From Candidatus Omnitrophota bacterium (lineage in GTDB: Bacteria; Omnitrophota; Gorgyraeia; Gygaellales; Profunditerraquicolaceae), in assembly GCA_022710715.1 (NCBI GenBank), contig JAKLGJ010000004.1, positions 192,166 through 256,165 of the forward strand: 64,000 nt of DNA, in the 5' to 3' direction. Positions within the stretch are counted from its first letter, which is position 1; the number at the start of each line of letters is the position of its first letter. Below the pieces are notes generated by a model. It did no database searches, was not told where the DNA came from, and worked only from the letters and a program-made list of their open reading frames with translations. Position numbers and translations under genes: made by a program. Of this stretch, positions 50,817 through 61,705 are shown in pieces.

Positions 50817-53807
50817 ATGAGCGATCTTTGGCAGGGAACGTTGGAGAAAGTCGACGATTTTCGCTGGCGCATCCCGCCTTCCTATAAGCCCGGCATGCGC
50901 GTGCCGGGCCTTATTTATGCCGACGAGAAGCTCTTAAAAGACATTCTCCGCGACAAAGCCGCGGAGCAGGTCGCCAATGTGGCGTTCCTGCCGGGGATCA
51001 TCAACGCTTCTCTGGCCATGCCGGATATTCACTGGGGCTATGGTTTCCCCATCGGCGGCGTCGCAGCGACGGATATCGAGGCCGGAGGAGTGATCTCGCC
51101 CGGCGGCGTTGGGTTCGATATCAACTGCCTTACCGCTGAATCGCGCGTCTTGCATGCTTTCGGCTATTCTCTGCGTATTGCCGATCTTGAACAGACCTGG
51201 CGGACGAATCGGTTAGCGGTCATGGATTTCCGCCGGGGCAGAAAAGAGGATGCGGCGATCTGCGCGTATATCAAGATGGCGCCGCGAGAAAAGCTCTTTG
51301 AGATAACTACGGTAACGGGGAGGAAAATAAAAGCCACGGCAGATCATCCTTTCTGGACGCAGGACGGCATGGTGCCTCTGAAACGGCTTGCGGCAGGCAA
51401 TCGTGTAGCCCTGTACCCTTTTGAAGGTGTGCCTTTCGAGAAACCGGGCGGGGAGATCATTGTCGACGAAGAAGACGTAGTGCGGTTGCTTGCAGCGCTT
51501 AAAAAGGACTCGGGCGGCAATGCCGGTATCCAGGTTTTGAATCATCTGAAAAAAAGAGGCCTTTTACCGTTGCGCTACGATTCGCCGGCGTTGCCTTATT
51601 TGATCAAGATAGCGGGGTATTGTATCGGCGACGGTAATATCCATTTTGCTAAAAGCCGCGGCAAAGGAGTGACCGGATTCTGGGGGAAGAAAGAAGACCT
51701 GGAGCTCATTCGTAAAGATGTCGCGAAAACCGGGTTCACTTGCTCGCGGGTGTACCGGCGCAACCGCCGGCATGCAATCAACACCCCCTATGATTTGGTT
51801 CAATTCGAGCATCTGGAAGAGTCCTGCAAGGTCGTTTCCAGTTCTTTTTCCGTATTATTGATCTTATTGGGCTGTCCATATGGCAATAAGGCGGAGAAGC
51901 CGTTTTCTGTTCCGCGATGGCTATTCAAAGCTCCGCTTTGGCAGAAGAGATTGTTCCTGGCAGCTTACTTCGGGGCGGAAATGTCATCGCCGAAATCTTT
52001 TCGCGAGCAGGGATATAATCTCTATTGTCCCGTAGTTTCAATGAACAAGAACGGGCTTCTAGCCGACGATGCTATCGCGTTTTTCAAAGATATTTCCACC
52101 CTGTTGACCGAGTTCGGGGTCAGGACGGTCGCGATCAGCGAAAGTCACTCCGGATTTACCAGGAAAGGGACTTTCAACTATCGTATACGGTTGATCCTGG
52201 CCAGCAAAACCGAAGATCTGATAACACTGTACAGCAGGGTAGGATTTGAGTATAATCTTCACCGCAGTTTCCTGGCTAATGCCGCTATTCAGTTCTTGAA
52301 ATACAAACAGCGGATACTCCGGGAACGCGAGGAGAAAAGCGTTCAGGCACAGCGTTTGCATGCCCGGGGCTTCAGTCCCGCCCAGATTACCGAGAGTATC
52401 GGCTCGGAATTCGTGAATCGCCGGTTCATTGAAAGATCTGTTTATGAAGGCAGGAAAACGGGCCCACGCATAAGTTCCGCGGCGTTGAATTTCGTCAGCT
52501 TTATGGATGAGAATACCGCGGGATTAGAGATGTCCGGCATGCTCTGGGACGCGATCGAGACGATCGAAGAATCGGCGTCTCCGGAGTATGTATACGATTT
52601 TACTGTAGGGCATCGGGATCATAATTTTGTTGCCGACACTTTCGTGGTTTCTAACTGCGGGGTCAGGTTGTTGACCACCAACCTGCGCTACGATGACGTC
52701 AAAGACAGGATCAAAGATTTAACCTGCCGGCTCTTTAACGCTATTCCCACCGGCGTCGGATCGAAAGGCGATATCCGGATCAGCGAGAAGGAAGAGCGCA
52801 AGCTCCTGGTCGAAGGAGCGGGTTGGGCGGTCAAACAGGGTTTCGGGGTCCAGGAAGATCTGGAGTGCACTGAAGAATCCGGCGCGATCCAGGGCGCGGA
52901 TCCCGCGGCAGTTTCCGAACGCGCCTATGAGCGCGGCAAGGCCCAATCGGGCACGCTGGGTTCAGGCAACCATTTCCTGGAAGTGCAGGTGATCGACCAG
53001 TTGTATAACCGCGACGCCTGCGATGCCCTTAATCTTGACCAGGGACAGATCACCCTCATGATCCATTCCGGCTCGCGCGGTCTGGGGTATCAGATCTGCG
53101 ACGATTACGTCCGGTCGATGGTGCGTTGTCTGGACAAGTATAAGATCGAAGTGCCGGACCGCCAGCTGGCCTGCGCGCCGGTAACCTCGCCGGAAGGGAA
53201 AGCTTATCTGGCCGCGATGCGCTGCGCGGCCAACTATGCCTGGGCCAACCGGCAATGCCTGATGCATCTGGCGCGGTTGACGTTCCAGGAGTTCTTCGGG
53301 ACTCCCTGGCAGAAGATGCAGATGCGCCTGGTGTATGATGTGGCGCATAACATCGCCAAGATCGAAAAACACACGGTGAACGGGCAGCTCAAGAATGTCT
53401 GCGTGCATCGCAAAGGGGCGACCCGCGCGTTCGGCCCCGGGCATCCGGAACTGCCGCAGCGGTATCGTCAGATGGGCCAGCCGGTGATCATCCCCGGCGA
53501 TATGGGGCGCAATTCTTACTTATTGGTCGGCACGCAGCAAGCGATGGAAGAAACATTCGGCAGCACCTGCCACGGCGCGGGCCGGGTGATGTCGCGCAGC
53601 GCCGCGACCCGGTCCATCGACAGCCGGCAGTTGCTTAAAGATCTGGAATCGAAAGGTATTACGGTGATGGCTGCCGGCAGAGGCACGCTGGTGGAAGAGG
53701 CGCCGGAAGTTTACAAGAACGTCAATGACGTGGTTGATGTAGTGCACAAGGCCGGGCTGTCCACCCGGGTGTGCAGGATGAGACCCCTGGGAGTGATTAA
53801 AGGATAA
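50817..53807 (+). CDS. rtcB: RNA-splicing ligase RtcB interrupted by a large intein
   Basis: Exteins carry GFDIN|[14 protein letters not shown] and GSTCHGAGR RtcB motifs. 996 aa versus about 480 for canonical RtcB. Confidence 0.9.
51126..52655 (+). mobile_element. RtcB intein (510 aa) with LAGLIDADG homing-endonuclease domain
   Basis: Starts with Cys (CLTAESRVL) and block B TADHPF. LAGLIDADG-like [14 protein letters not shown] and [10 protein letters not shown]. Block [16 protein letters not shown] and block G TFVVSN followed by +1 Cys. The penultimate residue is Ser rather than His. Confidence 0.85.
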
Positions 53808-57015: not shown

Positions 57016-59157
57016 ATGCTTAAAGATATCAAGCTTGGATGGAAAATAGGGGGAGGATTTGTTGCGATTCTCGGGTTATTGATGCTGGTAGGCAGCATCA
57101 CCATGTTCAATTTGAGCAAGGTTAAAATCATCTCCGGCGGGTTGGCAAATGAGAATCTGCCCAGCGTGACTATCGCCAATAAGATCGAGCGTATTACTTC
57201 CAATACCTATACATTAACGCAGGCGTATCTTGTTTCGGGTGACAAAAAGCAGGTTGTCGCGATCAAAAAAGACCTGGATGACCTTAAGAAAACCCTGGGA
57301 GAAGCCCAGACGTTGAGCGAGAAATCCGCGAAGCTCAAACAATTGCAGGACGCCGTCAGAGAGATCGACGATAAGATCAAACAATATGAGCGGGGCTTGA
57401 ATCTGATCGTCGATTTGAACAACGCGCTCAATAATGAGCGACGCAGATCCAACGACGCGGTGCGCGTGTATCTGGATGCAGCGGCGAGTTTCTTGAAGGT
57501 GCAGATCGGAGAAATGGGCGGTGAAATCGCCATCGGGGTCAAAGCCGATAAACTTGCGGACCGGTTGAATAAGATCAAACTGTGTAAAGAGCTTAATGAT
57601 CTGGGATTCAAACTGGAAAAGGTCGGGTTACGTGCCCAGGTCTCCAGGGATCCCAAGACCATCAATGATGCCAATATTCTGTTCGACAACGTTAATTCGG
57701 AGATCGACGCGTTACGCCGTATCACCAAGCATAAATCGCTGCGCAAAATGCTGGATGAATGCGAGAAGGCGGCGAACGAAACGAAAAACGCATACGGTCA
57801 GTTTGCTTTGAAATGGACGCAGAAAGAGAATGAAGTAAAGAAGATCAGCGATCTGTCGGTCCAGATCGTGGCCCTGGTCAAGGAAGCGTCGGAGATGAGC
57901 CTTAAGGATATCTCGGTGGCTTCGAATAAATCCATCAATTCCCTGTCCGGAACAGCGGCTATCCTGATCATCGGTTTCGCACTGGCGGTATTACTGGGCA
58001 TCGCGATCTCGTTCTTGCTGGTCGCATCCATCAATAAGCCCGTGAAGGCGTTGATCGACGCCAGTTTGCCGATCAGTAACGGCGATTTAACCCAGCAGGT
58101 CGCTATCAAAAGCGAGGATGAACTGGGGCTCATGGCGCGGGCTTTCAACGAAATTGTGAAATCGATGCATAAGATCGTTTCACAGGTGCGTTCGAGCGCG
58201 GATAAAGTGGCCAATTCCGCGCAGGAAATGTCCTCTTCTTCGGAAGAGATGAACGCCACTACCCAGGAAGTGTCGAGCGCGATCACCAAAGTCAGTAAGG
58301 GCGCGGACACGCAAGCCAAGCGTATCGATGAGACCTTTGCCACCATGGAGAAAACCTCCAACAGCATAAAGCAGATGGTGGAGAACGCCCAGGCGGCGAG
58401 TAAGACGGTAAAAGACGCCAGCACTACGGCTCTGCAGGGCAAAGAAGCCGCGGATACTGCTGTGGGCAAGATCGAGCAGCTGACCAATACCGTTACCGAG
58501 ACGGCGCAAGTCATCCAGAAACTGGGTCAGATGTCGCAGCAGATCGGGGAAATTACCGAGACCATTACTTCCATCGCCGACCAGACCAATTTGCTGGCCT
58601 TGAACGCGGCCATAGAAGCGGCGCGCGCGGGTGAGGCGGGACGCGGGTTCGCGGTCGTAGCCGAGGAAGTCCGTAAGCTGGCCGAAGGATCCGCTGAAGC
58701 TGTGCGTAAGATCGGCGGGTTGATCAGGTCCATACAGAGCGAGACCAATCACGCGGTCGATTCCATAGAAGTCAGCTCCAAAGAAGTTCAGGACGGCAAA
58801 ACGCAGGTCCTTAAAATATCCGAAGTGTTAAATGCAATTACGATTGCGGCGCAGAGCGCTTCAGGAGTGACCAATGAGATCGTTTCATTCGGCCAGGGGA
58901 TCATCGTCGAGGTTGAACACGTGGTCAAGAGCCTCAACGAGGTCGTATCGATCGCCCGGGAATCTGCCGCGACTGCGCAGCAGGTGACCTCCAGCACTGA
59001 AGAGCAAACGGCGTCGATGGAAGAAATGTCTGCTTCCGCGCAGGAGCTTGCGAGGCTTTCCACGGATCTGCTGGATGTGGTGAGCAAATTCAAGCTGGAT
59101 GCTTCTGCGGATATTAAGAAAACTCAACACGGAGGTGAGAAGATAAAAACTGCTTAG
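57016..59157 (+). CDS. mcp: Methyl-accepting chemotaxis protein (N-terminal helical sensor, HAMP, MA signalling domain)
   Basis: Two TM segments, a HAMP domain and the highly conserved MA-domain core ([30 protein letters not shown]). Confidence 0.88.
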
Positions 59158-59219
59158 GGGGGAGAAGTAATTGTCGTGTAGAAATATGTAGTGTAGCGTT
59201 TAACAAAGGAGAGGAACAA

Positions 59220-59711
59220 ATGAGAAGCTGGTATGGAGTAGTGATCGCGTTAGTCGTGGCAAGTCTGATGGTTGTGAGCAATGTGAGCGGGCTTCATGCG
59301 CAGGATCTGCAGGGAAAAGTCAAGACAGCTATGAAGATGCTTCAGGAAAAAACGAACTCTTTGGGTCAGCCCAAGCTTGACGGCGGCACATTGATGTTCG
59401 GAGAAGATGAAATGAACGGAAATTACGATCTGGTCGATGAAGTCGCCGATAATAACGGCTGCACCGCCACTATCTTCGCGGCGTCAGGCGATGGATTCAA
59501 GCGTATTTCTACGAACGTCATCAAGGATGGCAATAGAGCCGTCGGGACCATGCTTGACCCCAACGGAGCCGCCATCAAGAAGATCAAGAACGGCGAATCG
59601 TTCTACGGCGAAGCGGATATCCTGGGCGAGAAATATGAAACCGGATACGAGCCTATCAAAGACGCTTCCGGCCAGCCTATCGGTATCTGGTATGTAGGCT
59701 ACAAGAAATAA
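59220..59711 (+). CDS. Secreted Cache-type (Cache_3/Cache_2 fusion-like) sensor-domain protein
   Basis: Signal peptide and a single Cache-like ligand-binding domain with no output domain. Confidence 0.5.
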   Translation: MRSWYGVVIALVVASLMVVSNVSGLHAQDLQGKVKTAMKMLQEKTNSLGQPKLDGGTLMFGEDEMNGNYDLVDEVADNNGCTATIFAASGDGFKRISTNVIKDGNRAVGTMLDPNGAAIKKIKNGESFYGEADILGEKYETGYEPIKDASGQPIGIWYVGYKK

Positions 59712-59776: not shown

Positions 59777-59816
59777 TAGCCCTGATCGGGTAACCCGATC
59801 AGGGCTATTCTGTTTT
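59777..59816 (+). terminator. Rho-independent terminator
   Basis: 14 bp stem TAGCCCTGATCGGG/CCCGATCAGGGCTA with loop TAA, followed by TTCTGTTTT. Confidence 0.7.
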
Positions 59817-59899: not shown

Positions 59900-61705
59900 A
59901 TGCGTGTTTTGATAAGGAGCAGAGAACCGGTGTCGCAAACACAACTTGACGTCAAATTGCTGGAAGTCACCGATAACGCCCTGGCGATCATTTACGCCGC
60001 CTGCCGGCAGTGCTATTCCGATAAATTTGCCGGCGATATCTTTGACGACGGCAGCGCCGATCCCGGCAAAGCCGGGGAGTTCATCCGTAAAGTGGTCGCT
60101 TCCGGCCATGAAAGCCCGCTCGAGCATGCTAAATTCACCTTTGCTATCCAGGGCGTGTCGCGGGCGCTGACCCATCAGCTGGTGCGTCACCGGATCGCTT
60201 CTTTCTGTTTAACGGGAGATACGATAATCAAGGGAGCACGGAATGACAGTGCTCGGTCGTATAAAAAGTATACCTTGAAATCGTTGTATGAGAGAATGCT
60301 GACCCCGCACGGCAGGTCTCGTTTAAAACTGATCAGGTTGAATGCTTACGATGAGCAGGGGAAGGTATTTGATCGGGGGAAGATCAAAACAATTCTGTAC
60401 ACCGGCAGGCAAATGGTATGGCGGGTGAAGTTGACTAACGGCCAGAGCATAAAAGCCACGATTAATCATCGGTTTTTAACGCGAGATGGCTGGTTGCCTT
60501 TGGAAGATATTATACGCGTCAGACCTCAACTGGGCGTTAACGGTATTGCTTGCCGGCATCCGAGTTTTGCTGTGCTTAGAAACAGGCAATGGCTGGAGGA
60601 GCAATATAGTCTCAAGAATCTGAAGCAAGAAACTATTGCGAAGCTGATTGGATGCTCCGGTCATACGGTGAGAAGCTGGGTATTCAAGCATGGTTTACAG
60701 AAAGAAATCGGCGGTTTGCATGGGCATCCTCCCAATCGTGGATATCATTGGAAGCTTAATCGCAATCGCACCCTTGAGGAGAAAAAGGCGATTTCCGAGA
60801 GGATGAAAGGCCCGCGCAATCCTATGTGGAAGGGGGGAGTTACGCGGTTGGACGTTACCTTGCGCAAAATGGTATCTCCCGAAGTCCGTAAGGACATTTA
60901 TAGGCGAGATGGTTTTCAATGTCGCCTGTGCAAGCAGGTTGGAGGCCGTTTGACGCTGCATCATCGGGTGCCGCTCTATGTCAATCCGGTCGACCCGGCG
61001 GATACAGATAATTTAGTGACTCTTTGCAGGAAATGCCATTTTAAAGTGAACAATCATGAAATGGAATATATGAATATTTTCGGAATTGACCCTATACCCT
61101 ATCATGCCAGGTCAAGCGGTTGTTTTCGAGTCATAAAATGGGTAGAGATAGCCAGTATTGAGTGTGCAGGGATCGAAGACACGTACGATATAGAGATGCA
61201 GGCTCCGCACCATAATTTTGTAGCCAACGGTTTTGTCGTTCATAATTCACAGCAGTCGCAACGCTATGTCAAGGAGTCCCAGTTCGATTACATCATCCCG
61301 CCTTCCATCGAGAAGGATCCGCGCAAGAAAGAGGTTTTTCTCCAGACCATGAAGGAGATACAGGAACAGTACAATAAACTGCTCGCGTTGTACAAAGAAG
61401 GCGGACAGCAGGGGGAAGTCGCCAACCAGGACGCGCGTTTTGTCCTGCCGCAGGCCGCCGAGACCAAAATCGTGGTAAGCATGAACTGCCGGGAATTGCT
61501 GCATTTTTTCAAGCACCGCTGCTGCGTGCGGGCCCAGTGGGAGATCCGGGCTTTAGCCGGCCGCATGCTGGCCATGGCCAGGGAGAAACTGCCCGAAATC
61601 TTCGGCGCCGCCGGCGCGAAGTGCGAATCGCTTGGGTATTGTCCGGAAGGGGAGAAATTCAGCTGCGGTAAATATCCCTCCAAAGATAAAGTCCTGAAAG
61701 TGTAA
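59900..61705 (+). CDS. thyX: Flavin-dependent thymidylate synthase ThyX interrupted by an intein
   Basis: The ThyX signature RHRIASF|SQQSQRY is split by the insert. Remaining exteins total about 254 aa. Confidence 0.88.
   Translation: MRVLIRSREPVSQTQLDVKLLEVTDNALAIIYAACRQCYSDKFAGDIFDDGSADPGKAGEFIRKVVASGHESPLEHAKFTFAIQGVSRALTHQLVRHRIASFCLTGDTIIKGARNDSARSYKKYTLKSLYERMLTPHGRSRLKLIRLNAYDEQGKVFDRGKIKTILYTGRQMVWRVKLTNGQSIKATINHRFLTRDGWLPLEDIIRVRPQLGVNGIACRHPSFAVLRNRQWLEEQYSLKNLKQETIAKLIGCSGHTVRSWVFKHGLQKEIGGLHGHPPNRGYHWKLNRNRTLEEKKAISERMKGPRNPMWKGGVTRLDVTLRKMVSPEVRKDIYRRDGFQCRLCKQVGGRLTLHHRVPLYVNPVDPADTDNLVTLCRKCHFKVNNHEMEYMNIFGIDPIPYHARSSGCFRVIKWVEIASIECAGIEDTYDIEMQAPHHNFVANGFVVHNSQQSQRYVKESQFDYIIPPSIEKDPRKKEVFLQTMKEIQEQYNKLLALYKEGGQQGEVANQDARFVLPQAAETKIVVSMNCRELLHFFKHRCCVRAQWEIRALAGRMLAMAREKLPEIFGAAGAKCESLGYCPEGEKFSCGKYPSKDKVLKV
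60206..61246 (+). mobile_element. ThyX intein (347 aa) with HNH homing-endonuclease domain
   Basis: Starts with Cys (CLTGDTII), block B-like KATINHRF, an HNH module (CRLC...HHRVP...N...CRKCH), block F YDIEMQAPHHNFVA and block G GFVVHN followed by +1 Ser. Confidence 0.85.

What the first reader, a model, noticed from the sequence alone, without database searches (positions are those of the whole stretch)
59900..61705. ThyX interrupted by a 347 aa HNH-intein exactly inside the RHR...S active-site signature
RHRIASF|CLTGD...GFVVHN|SQQSQRY. The insertion sits within the flavin-dependent thymidylate synthase signature, with canonical intein termini (Cys1, terminal HN, +1 Ser) and an HNH endonuclease core. 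Together with the RtcB intein this gives two homing-endonuclease inteins in 64 kb.
Basis: partly seen in the sequence, partly recalled or inferred. Interest (0 to 1): 0.7.

Follow-up and report, generated by a model that had tools for sequence, protein, structure and literature searches.

The report
HNH intein splitting a ThyX gene
The thymidylate synthase gene (thyX) of this uncultured Omnitrophota bacterium is interrupted, inside its active-site motif, by a self-splicing protein element (intein) that carries its own DNA-cutting enzyme; the reading is correct, but this is an ordinary member of a large, already known family of mobile elements.

Summary
The observation and the interpretation both hold. 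ORF 59900..61705 (true start probably GTG 59930) encodes a ThyX precursor. A 347-aa insert (window 60206..61246) sits between Phe and Ser of RHRIASF|SQQSQRY, inside the RHR-X7-S ThyX motif.

The insert has Cys1, a TxxH block B, block F/G ending in His-Asn, and Ser+1. It passes the Pfam and TIGRFAM intein models and the Pfam HNH model. Its predicted Hint fold superposes on DnaB mini-inteins. Removing it in silico gives a gapless, full-length ThyX.

It is not new in kind:
- An identical protein is already in NCBI, from a Candidatus Omnitrophota MAG.
- 117 of the 120 best database homologs carry an intein at the same site, 110 of them with the full HNH motif.
- ThyX inteins have been published since 2004 (Trichodesmium Ter ThyX; mycobacteriophages), and HNH inteins since 1997.

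Signs of mobility:
- The 120 closest ThyX relatives (66-79% identity) all lack the intein.
- Intein and extein similarities are incongruent.
- Intein GC3 is 51%, against about 70% in the exteins.

One mildly interesting extra: related HNH inteins occupy at least three neighbouring Ser codons of the same ThyX motif in different phyla. Verdict: real, new member of a known kind, low interest.

The parts
59930..61705 (+). thyX precursor CDS (591 aa plus stop). The longest ORF starts at ATG 59900.
   Evidence: The 100% identical public protein P0001 is 591 aa. The gene is called 2001-3776 in L081, which is identical to the window. AAGGAG lies at 59914..59919, 10 nt upstream of the GTG.
59930..60205 (+). 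N-extein (ThyX residues 1-92), ending ...THQLVRHRIASF
60206..61246 (+). Intein, 347 aa, Cys1 ... His346-Asn347
   Evidence: Pfam PF14890 at 2.7e-11; TIGR01445 and TIGR01443 above cutoff. AF2 model has pLDDT 80.9, and its Foldseek top hits are DnaB mini-inteins with TMt 0.79-0.88.
60206..60541 (+). Hint N-lobe (intein aa 1-112) with block A (CLTGDT) and block B (T85-I-N-H88, window 60458..60469)
   Evidence: Aligns to Ssp DnaB mini-intein 1MI8 over residues 32-89. C1 and H88 are invariant in alignment A1.
60542..61120 (+). Endonuclease module inserted in the Hint domain (intein aa 113-305): helix-turn-helix region, linker with the NPxWKGG motif, and HNH
   Evidence: phrog_8446 'HNH endonuclease' at 3e-21 covers intein aa 113-284. 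Mini-intein relatives P0021 (167 aa) and P0119 (159 aa) lack this module.
60584..60691 (+). Predicted three-helix DNA-binding (HTH-like) region, intein aa 127-162
   Evidence: Helices 127-136, 141-148 and 152-162 in the AF2 model. Weak matches to the IS630 HTH and sigma-70 region 4. Homologs carry HTH_23 and Sigma70_r4 Pfam hits.
60920..61039 (+). HNH core: C239-x2-C242 ... H252-H253 ... N269 ... C274-x2-C277-H278
   Evidence: Pfam PF01844 at 28.4 bits against a cutoff of 21.4. All eight residues are invariant in A1. The model shows a beta-beta-alpha arrangement: E249-253, E270-274, H275-281. Weak sequence matches to HNH 5H0M and to the IscB HNH.
61121..61246 (+). Hint C-lobe (intein aa 306-347) with block F (TYD328 ... 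PHHNFVANG) and block G (FVVHN)
61247..61705 (+). C-extein, starting with Ser+1 (SQQSQRYV...), plus the stop codon. It contains the invariant Ser of RHR-X7-S three residues in.

Best explanation
This is a canonical class-1, bifunctional intein: a Hint splicing domain with an in-frame HTH+HNH homing-endonuclease module. It is inserted in the thyX gene of a Candidatus Omnitrophota bacterium, between the 4th and 5th residues of the X7 spacer of the RHR-X7-S flavin/dUMP-binding motif.

Inferred mechanism:
1. The 591-aa precursor is translated. It is enzymatically dead because the active-site loop is split.
2. The Hint domain folds.
3. Cys1 performs an N-S acyl shift.
4. The Ser+1 hydroxyl attacks the thioester, giving a branched intermediate.
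5. Asn347 cyclises, assisted by His346, and releases the intein.
6. An O-N shift leaves a native Phe-Ser bond and a 244-aa ThyX.

At the DNA level, the free intein's HNH nuclease, guided by its HTH region, is expected to cut intein-less thyX alleles around CGTCACCGGATCGCTTCTTTC|TCACAGCAGTCGCAACGCTAT. Repair from the occupied allele would then copy the intein in (homing).

Shown here: the anatomy, conservation of every catalytic residue, the fold, reconstitution of ThyX, and population signatures of mobility. Inferred: actual splicing, nuclease activity and the target site.
For: Domain and motif evidence.

Reconstitution:
- The spliced product gives a single full-length Thy1/TIGR02170 hit and a gapless alignment to solved ThyX.
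- The junction RHRIASFSQQSQRY is identical to that of 20 intein-free relatives and fits RHR[ILVM]AS[YF]SQQSQRY, seen in 115 of the 120 closest.

Same-site alleles:
- 117 of the 120 best homologs have an intein at RHRxxx(x)[YF]|C...HN|S.
- 110 of them carry the complete CxxC..HH..N..CxxCH motif.

Mobility:
- The 120 closest extein relatives (66-79% identity, mostly Omnitrophota) all lack the intein.
- P0013-P0019 share 61-64% intein identity but only 43-49% extein identity. P0023 shows the reverse: 36% intein against 60% extein.
- Intein GC is 46.9% against a window mean of 53.8% (SD 2.9). Fewer than 1% of equal-length windows are as low. GC3 is 51% against 67-73% in the exteins. The same depression is seen in two other hosts.
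- Mini-intein derivatives exist, as expected from the homing cycle.

Not an assembly artefact: the protein is found on 7 contigs, and L081 is identical to the window.

Functional site: the RHR motif binds FAD and Gln103 contacts the flavin in M. tuberculosis ThyX (PMC6514825).
Against: - There is no experimental evidence for splicing or cleavage of this allele.
- Intein and extein are equally diverged (about 67%) from the nearest intein-bearing relatives P0002-P0011. This suggests long vertical residence in that sub-lineage rather than a recent invasion.
- The endonuclease could therefore be retained without currently homing.
- The HNH Pfam score is only modestly above its cutoff.
- The linker segments (aa 169-185 and 299-304) are modelled with low confidence.
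Confidence: 0.93

Rival explanations
1. The intein still splices, but its HNH domain is no longer an active homing nuclease. It would be a 'domesticated' or stranded intein that is inherited vertically and kept only because imprecise loss would destroy ThyX.
For: Intein and extein identities to the nearest intein-bearing relatives are equal, about 67%, which is consistent with co-divergence. Mini-inteins that lost the nuclease exist at the same site, e.g. P0021 and P0119.
Against: All HNH catalytic and zinc residues are intact here and invariant across relatives of 34-68% identity. The full HNH motif is present in 110 of 117 same-site inteins, which argues for continued selection on the nuclease. 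The closest ThyX relatives are intein-free, and intein and extein similarities are incongruent.
Confidence: 0.2
2. The intein acts as a conditional (for example redox- or temperature-sensitive) post-translational switch on dTMP synthesis. It would then be more than a purely selfish element.
For: The only support is circumstantial. The insertion lies in the flavin/dUMP-binding loop, so the precursor must be inactive (PMC6514825). Conditional splicing has been proposed for other inteins, as cited in bioRxiv 10.1101/2025.01.02.630785.
Against: Nothing specific in the sequence points to this. There is no Cys pair positioned for a redox trap at the junction: the -1 residue is Phe and the +1 residue is Ser. 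Insertion in active-site motifs is the general rule for selfish inteins (PMC5050341). Most close relatives do without the intein.
Confidence: 0.05
3. The insert is not spliced out. It would be a permanent domain insertion, or a pseudogenised thyX, with thymidylate supplied by another enzyme.
For: The rest of the genome was not available, so a second thymidylate synthase (thyA) cannot be excluded.
Against: The reading frame is open throughout, and every splicing residue is intact: C1, T85/H88, D328, H346, N347 and S+1. The exteins show no decay, with a full-length equivalog-level TIGR02170 match. The insertion splits a loop that must be contiguous for FAD/dUMP binding.
Confidence: 0.02

Closest known systems
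Ter ThyX intein of Trichodesmium erythraeum (InBase; Liu & Yang 2004, J Bacteriol 186:6316, cited in PMC4913046; splicing shown in E. coli, PMC3620165) and its cyanobacterial relatives
   Same: The host protein family is the same (ThyX), and the insertion falls in the same active-site motif. The architecture is bifunctional, and the residue at +1 is Ser in cyanobacterial relatives. Cyanobacterial ThyX inteins (Nostoc, Calothrix, Leptolyngbya and others) carry the same HTH+HNH module and are detectable homologs at 25-31% identity.
   Different: In the cyanobacterial alleles the intein sits immediately before the invariant Ser (THR-x8|S-x-R-Y). That is three residues downstream of the site used here. 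The Ter sequence itself could not be retrieved, so placing it at that site is an inference. The host phylum also differs.
Same-site ThyX HNH inteins in public metagenome and MAG proteins (P0002-P0120: Omnitrophota, Deltaproteobacteria, Patescibacteria, Bathyarchaeota, Gemmatimonadota, Gemmata, Armatimonadota)
   Same: The insertion point is identical (RHRxxx(x)[YF]|C...HN|SQxSQRY). Inteins are 300-430 aa with the same HNH motif, at up to 68% identity. An identical protein is already deposited as P0001.
   Different: None in kind. These records are annotated only as 'FAD-dependent thymidylate synthase', without mention of the intein.
Actinobacteriophage / mycobacteriophage ThyX inteins (PMC5050341; bioRxiv 10.1101/2025.01.02.630785)
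   Same: These are inteins in flavin-dependent thymidylate synthase at the active centre. The 2025 survey lists thymidylate synthase among hosts of non-canonical endonuclease inteins, a group that includes in-frame HNH inteins.
   Different: They are phage-borne and actinobacterial. In the phage collection only 3 records (2 distinct phages) match across the whole precursor, at 28-30% identity. Their insertion points were not compared here.
Ssp/Npu DnaB mini-inteins (PDB 1MI8, 6FRG, 4O1R)
   Same: These are the closest solved Hint domains by sequence (2.1e-14) and by fold (TMt 0.79-0.88).
   Different: The host protein differs (DnaB), and the crystallised forms have no endonuclease module.
Free-standing phage HNH endonucleases (PHROG phrog_8446)
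   Same: The whole HTH+HNH insert (intein aa 113-284) matches this family at 3e-21. This suggests the nuclease module derives from a free-standing phage homing endonuclease.
   Different: These proteins are not embedded in a Hint domain.

Membership tests
Intein (class 1 Hint-domain protein-splicing element) | N-terminal nucleophile (Cys/Ser) as the first residue, block A | tested here: met
   Cys1 in CLTGDT. It is invariant in the 15-sequence alignment A1.
Intein (class 1 Hint-domain protein-splicing element) | Block B TxxH motif | tested here: met
   T85-I-N-H88. H88 is invariant. The region aligns to block B of the Ssp DnaB intein.
Intein (class 1 Hint-domain protein-splicing element) | C-terminal His-Asn (block G), a block F Asp, and a Ser/Thr/Cys at +1 | tested here: met
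   D328, H346-N347 and Ser+1 are present. TIGR01443 scores 24.0 bits on the full precursor (21.8 on the intein alone) against a cutoff of 15.6.
Intein (class 1 Hint-domain protein-splicing element) | Hint fold | tested here: met
   PF14890 scores 44 bits against a cutoff of 35.8. The AF2 model has pLDDT 80.9, with Foldseek hits to DnaB, RecA and DnaE inteins at probability 1.00.
Intein (class 1 Hint-domain protein-splicing element) | In-frame insertion whose removal restores a contiguous host protein | tested here: met
   The spliced product matches Thy1 over 1-191/191 and aligns gaplessly to 3FNN. Its junction is identical to intein-free relatives.
Intein (class 1 Hint-domain protein-splicing element) | Autocatalytic protein splicing demonstrated | not testable with these tools
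   This needs expression followed by Western blot or mass spectrometry.
HNH homing endonuclease (PF01844, beta-beta-alpha-Me) | HNH catalytic residues with flanking CxxC zinc ligands in a beta-beta-alpha arrangement | tested here: met
   C239/C242, H252-H253, N269, C274/C277 and H278 are present. PF01844 scores 28.4 bits against a cutoff of 21.4. Nine PHROG HNH families match at E <= 1e-7. The model shows E249-253, E270-274 and H275-281.
HNH homing endonuclease (PF01844, beta-beta-alpha-Me) | Sporadic distribution and horizontal transfer typical of a homing element | tested here: met
   The 120 closest ThyX relatives are intein-free. Intein and extein identities are incongruent. GC3 is depressed in the intein.
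HNH homing endonuclease (PF01844, beta-beta-alpha-Me) | Site-specific cleavage of the intein-less allele | not testable with these tools
   This needs an in-vitro cleavage assay on an empty thyX site, e.g. the L082 allele.
ThyX, flavin-dependent thymidylate synthase (PF02511 / TIGR02170) | Full-length match above the curated cutoffs after removal of the insert | tested here: met
   Thy1 scores 240 bits against a cutoff of 24.8. TIGR02170 (equivalog) scores 205 bits against 87.9.
ThyX, flavin-dependent thymidylate synthase (PF02511 / TIGR02170) | RHR-X7-S signature | tested here: met
   RHR-IASFSQQ-S is reconstituted only after splicing.
Cyanobacterial (Ter ThyX-type) intein allele | Same insertion point in ThyX | tested here: not met
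   Cyanobacterial ThyX inteins are inserted at THR-x8|SxRY, three residues downstream: 24 loci and 106 of 120 proteins. The Ter sequence itself was not retrieved.

The most novel reading that the evidence does not exclude
One lineage of HTH+HNH inteins appears to be specialised on the ThyX RHR...S motif. It seems to have re-targeted at least three neighbouring Ser codons: positions -5, -3 and 0 relative to the invariant Ser, plus a ThyX-like THRAF|SRN site. This is seen across more than 10 bacterial and archaeal phyla, and the inteins cluster by site in an NJ tree. If this micro-scale site switching is real and undescribed, ThyX would be a natural system for studying how an intein and its homing endonuclease co-evolve a new target a few base pairs away. 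The window's intein would be one representative of the '-3' allele.
Probability: 0.3. Interest if true: 0.4.

Novelty: new member of a known kind. Interest (0 to 1): 0.2.

Why it matters
For annotation, the gene should be labelled 'intein-containing ThyX'. The mature enzyme is 244 aa, not 591 aa, and public records of this and more than 100 sibling proteins omit this. Biologically, it adds Omnitrophota to the phyla that carry ThyX inteins. It also provides another compact (347 aa) Cys1/Ser+1 intein with an HNH nuclease that could be mined for protein-engineering tools, as was done with Ter ThyX. It does not open a new question. Inteins in active-site motifs of nucleotide-metabolism enzymes, including ThyX, and HNH-type intein endonucleases are both well documented.

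Tried and rejected
1. I looked for the Trichodesmium Ter ThyX sequence to compare insertion points. The founding paper (PMC515151) is not held. Sequence figures are not in the text of PMC3620165. Trichodesmium was not among the 80 genome loci or the 120 cyanobacterial hits. The comparison therefore rests on other cyanobacteria.

2. The Foldseek search of the whole intein model returned only Hint-domain matches. The HNH module was not separately confirmed by fold search. A phmmer search of the insert against PDB gave only weak HNH hits, at 0.014-0.016.

3. The phage collection holds no close relative. The best full-length matches are 28-30% identical, so a recent phage origin could not be shown.

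4. My first regex classification of genome loci mislabelled most of them as 'other' exteins. Re-inspection and Pfam showed they are all Thy1-family proteins with different junctions.

5. I considered an assembly chimera, a group I/II intron and a BIL domain. All were rejected: the frame is continuous, the intein termini are canonical, and the sequence recurs on 7 contigs.

6. I searched for a LAGLIDADG model in the RtcB intein and found none, even at E <= 1.

Full report
**1. The observation**

The + strand ORF 59900..61705 (601 aa) is present. Its translation contains ...THQLVRHRIASF / CLTGDTIIKG...NFVANGFVVHN / SQQSQRYVKE... The middle piece is exactly 347 aa and is encoded by window 60206..61246.

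The most probable start is GTG 59930, not ATG 59900. It is preceded by AAGGAG at 59914..59919. An identical 591-aa protein is already public: P0001, 'MAG TPA: FAD-dependent thymidylate synthase [Candidatus Omnitrophota bacterium]'. Homologs place RHR at the same offset.

The same gene was found on 7 assembled contigs. One of them (L081) is base-for-base identical to the window. The structure is therefore not an assembly artefact.

**2. What it is**

On the precursor, Pfam finds:
- Thy1 split into two stretches (2.2e-64);
- Intein_splicing (8e-11, above the gathering score);
- HNH (6.6e-6, above the gathering score).

NCBIfam adds thyX TIGR02170, intein_Nterm TIGR01445 and intein_Cterm TIGR01443, all above cutoff.

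Removing residues 103-449 of the ORF gives a 254-aa protein (244 aa from the GTG start). This product has a single Thy1 hit covering profile positions 1-191 of 191 (2.3e-71) and TIGR02170 at 205 bits. It aligns without a gap across the junction to Corynebacterium glutamicum ThyX structures 3FNN/3GE9 (query RHRIASFSQQSQRY against RHRHFSFSQLSQRF).

The junction is RHR-IASF|SQQ-S. The intein therefore lies between the 4th and 5th residues of the X7 spacer of the RHR-X7-S ThyX motif, three residues upstream of the invariant Ser. In M. tuberculosis ThyX the RHR motif hydrogen-bonds FAD, and the Gln two residues after the insertion point contacts the flavin (PMC6514825). An unspliced precursor should therefore be inactive (inference).

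**3. Anatomy of the intein**

- **Splicing residues.** Block A is C1-LTGDT. Block B is T85-I-N-H88. Block F is T326-Y-D328...P-H-H336-N-F-V-A-N-G. Block G is F-V-V-H346-N347, followed by Ser+1. All are invariant or nearly so in an alignment of 15 same-site inteins of 34-68% identity (A1).
- **Closest solved relatives.** The Hint halves are closest in sequence to the Ssp DnaB mini-intein 1MI8 (2.1e-14).
- **Predicted fold.** An AlphaFold2 model built from A1 has mean pLDDT 80.9. Its best Foldseek matches in the PDB are DnaB, RecA and DnaE inteins (probability 1.00, TM-score to target 0.79-0.88).
- **Endonuclease insert.** Between the two Hint lobes lies a roughly 190-aa insert with three parts: a three-helix HTH-like region (aa 127-162), a linker with a conserved NPxWKGG motif, and a zinc-ribbon HNH core (C239xxC242...H252H253...N269...C274xxC277H278). 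The core is modelled as beta-beta-alpha.
- **Origin of the insert.** The whole insert (aa 113-284) matches a family of free-standing phage HNH endonucleases, phrog_8446, at 3e-21. This points to its origin.

**4. Relatives and signs of mobility**

- **Same-site alleles.** Of the 120 best database homologs of the precursor, 117 carry an intein at the homologous point (RHRxxx(x)[YF]|C...HN|SQxSQRY). 110 of these have the complete HNH motif. A few are mini-inteins of 159-243 aa that have lost the nuclease. Named sources include Omnitrophota, Deltaproteobacteria, Patescibacteria, Bathyarchaeota, Gemmatimonadaceae and Armatimonadetes.
- **Intein-free relatives.** The 120 closest relatives of the spliced ThyX (66-79% identity, mainly Omnitrophota) are all intein-free proteins of 237-266 aa. 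Their junction is RHR[ILVM]AS[YF]SQQSQRY.
- **Incongruent similarities.** P0013-P0019 (one labelled Deltaproteobacteria) share 61-64% intein identity but only 43-49% extein identity with the window protein. P0023 shows the reverse.
- **Composition.** The intein is compositionally distinct. Its GC is 46.9% against a window mean of 53.8% (SD 2.9), and fewer than 1% of equal-length windows are as low. GC3 is 51% against 67% and 73% in the exteins. A similar GC3 deficit is seen in two other hosts of this subclade (L083, L084) but not in high-GC Gemmatimonadota or Gemmata.

Together these are the expected signatures of a homing element that moves between thyX alleles.

One counter-indication: intein and extein are equally diverged (about 67%) from the nearest intein-bearing relatives P0002-P0011. 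Within that sub-lineage, inheritance may have been vertical for a long time.

**5. Wider family**

A genome scan seeded with alignment A1 found 290 relatives. Of the best 80 loci, 79 lie in Thy1-family genes and one in a DNA polymerase III alpha gene.

The junctions fall into neighbouring but distinct positions of the same motif:

| Site | Junction | Loci | Main hosts |
|---|---|---|---|
| a | RHRxx\|S-x-N-x-x-S-x-R-Y | 39 | Gemmatimonadota, Actinomycetota, Planctomycetota, Thermoplasmata and others |
| b (this window) | RHRxxxx(x)\|S-Q-x-S-Q-R-Y | 13 | as listed in section 4 |
| c | THR-x8\|S-x-R-Y | 24 | all cyanobacteria |
| d | THRAF\|SRNxxSSR | 3 | not examined |

In every case the +1 residue is a Ser of the motif. 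A neighbour-joining tree groups the inteins by site, with the cyanobacterial clade nested among site-a inteins. No support values were computed, so this is suggestive only.

In the 50%-identity representative library, the intein has 92 cluster representatives at E <= 1e-30 and 1059 at E <= 1e-10. The family is large.

**6. Comparison with what is known**

- The Ter ThyX intein splices efficiently in E. coli and has been engineered into split inteins (PMC3620165).
- Mycobacteriophage and other actinobacteriophage ThyX inteins are described (PMC5050341; bioRxiv 10.1101/2025.01.02.630785). The bioRxiv survey lists thymidylate synthase among hosts of inteins with non-canonical endonucleases, a group that includes in-frame HNH inteins.
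- HNH inteins were first identified in 1997 (Dalgaard et al., cited).
- NCBI already names at least one cyanobacterial protein 'thymidylate synthase (FAD), intein-containing' (P0278).

The window's element therefore meets every sequence-testable criterion of a class-1 intein, of an HNH endonuclease domain and of ThyX. It differs from the cyanobacterial (Ter-type) allele only in its insertion point, three residues upstream, and in its host phylum.

**7. Verdict**

The finding is a correct identification of an ordinary element: a new member, in Omnitrophota, of a known and abundant kind. Its practical value is annotation, since the mature ThyX is 244 aa.

The only mildly novel thread is the clustering of related HNH inteins on three adjacent Ser codons of one motif. 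I could not find this described in the searchable literature, but it may well be catalogued in intein databases.

Interest 0.2.

Noticed in passing
window 50817..53807 (+): The RtcB gene carries a 510-aa intein (protein aa 104-613). Its junction is GVGFDIN|CLTAES...FVVSN|CGVRLL, inside the conserved GFDINCG motif. The penultimate residue is Ser rather than His, and +1 is Cys. Pfam finds only Intein_splicing; no endonuclease model hits even at E <= 1. LAGLIDADG-like strings ([17 protein letters not shown]) are visible by eye only. An HMM built from the ThyX inteins finds only these two inteins in all six frames of the window.
   Followed up: partly
window 61610..61702 (ThyX C-terminus); P0121-P0240: This ThyX clade ends in a conserved Cys-rich tail, GAKCExLGYCPEGxKFxCGKYP (C-x5-C-x8-C). 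It is present in all 120 closest intein-free relatives. It lies outside the Thy1 Pfam domain, and its function is unknown to me.
   Followed up: partly
loci L001-L080 (genome contigs); P0241-P0360: Related HTH+HNH inteins sit at three or four adjacent positions of the ThyX RHR...S motif in different phyla, always before a Ser. Inteins cluster by site in an NJ tree. Cyanobacterial ThyX has THR instead of RHR, with the intein directly before the invariant Ser.
   Followed up: partly
P0034, P0064 (974-980 aa metagenome proteins): Some ThyX proteins carry a second, LAGLIDADG-type intein (PF14528) at an upstream site, AGR(L/T)|CFD...SGN|CY(L/M)SFG. This is in addition to the HNH intein at the RHR motif.
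   Followed up: no
window 60206..61246; L083 3001-4788; L084 3001-4773: Intein GC3 is 14-20 points below extein GC3 in three hosts of different genomic GC (42%, 54%, 56%). It equals extein GC3 in Gemmatimonadota and Gemmata loci with 62-71% GC. The intein GC partly tracks the host GC.
   Followed up: partly
window 59777..59816 (+): A perfect 13-bp stem (TAGCCCTGATCGG/CCGATCAGGGCTA) with a GTAA loop is followed by TTCTGTTTT, between the Cache-domain gene and thyX. It looks like an intrinsic terminator. The radical-SAM gene starts only 27 nt after the thyX stop, which suggests co-transcription.
   Followed up: no
window 57016..59711 (+): Upstream neighbours are a methyl-accepting chemotaxis protein (713 aa) and a small stand-alone Cache-domain protein (163 aa). 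Downstream are a radical-SAM protein and the glycine-cleavage T protein. In relatives L083 and L084, thyX also sits among one-carbon/folate genes: GcvP, lipoate ligase, MTHFR, GTP cyclohydrolase I and a pterin-binding protein.
   Followed up: no
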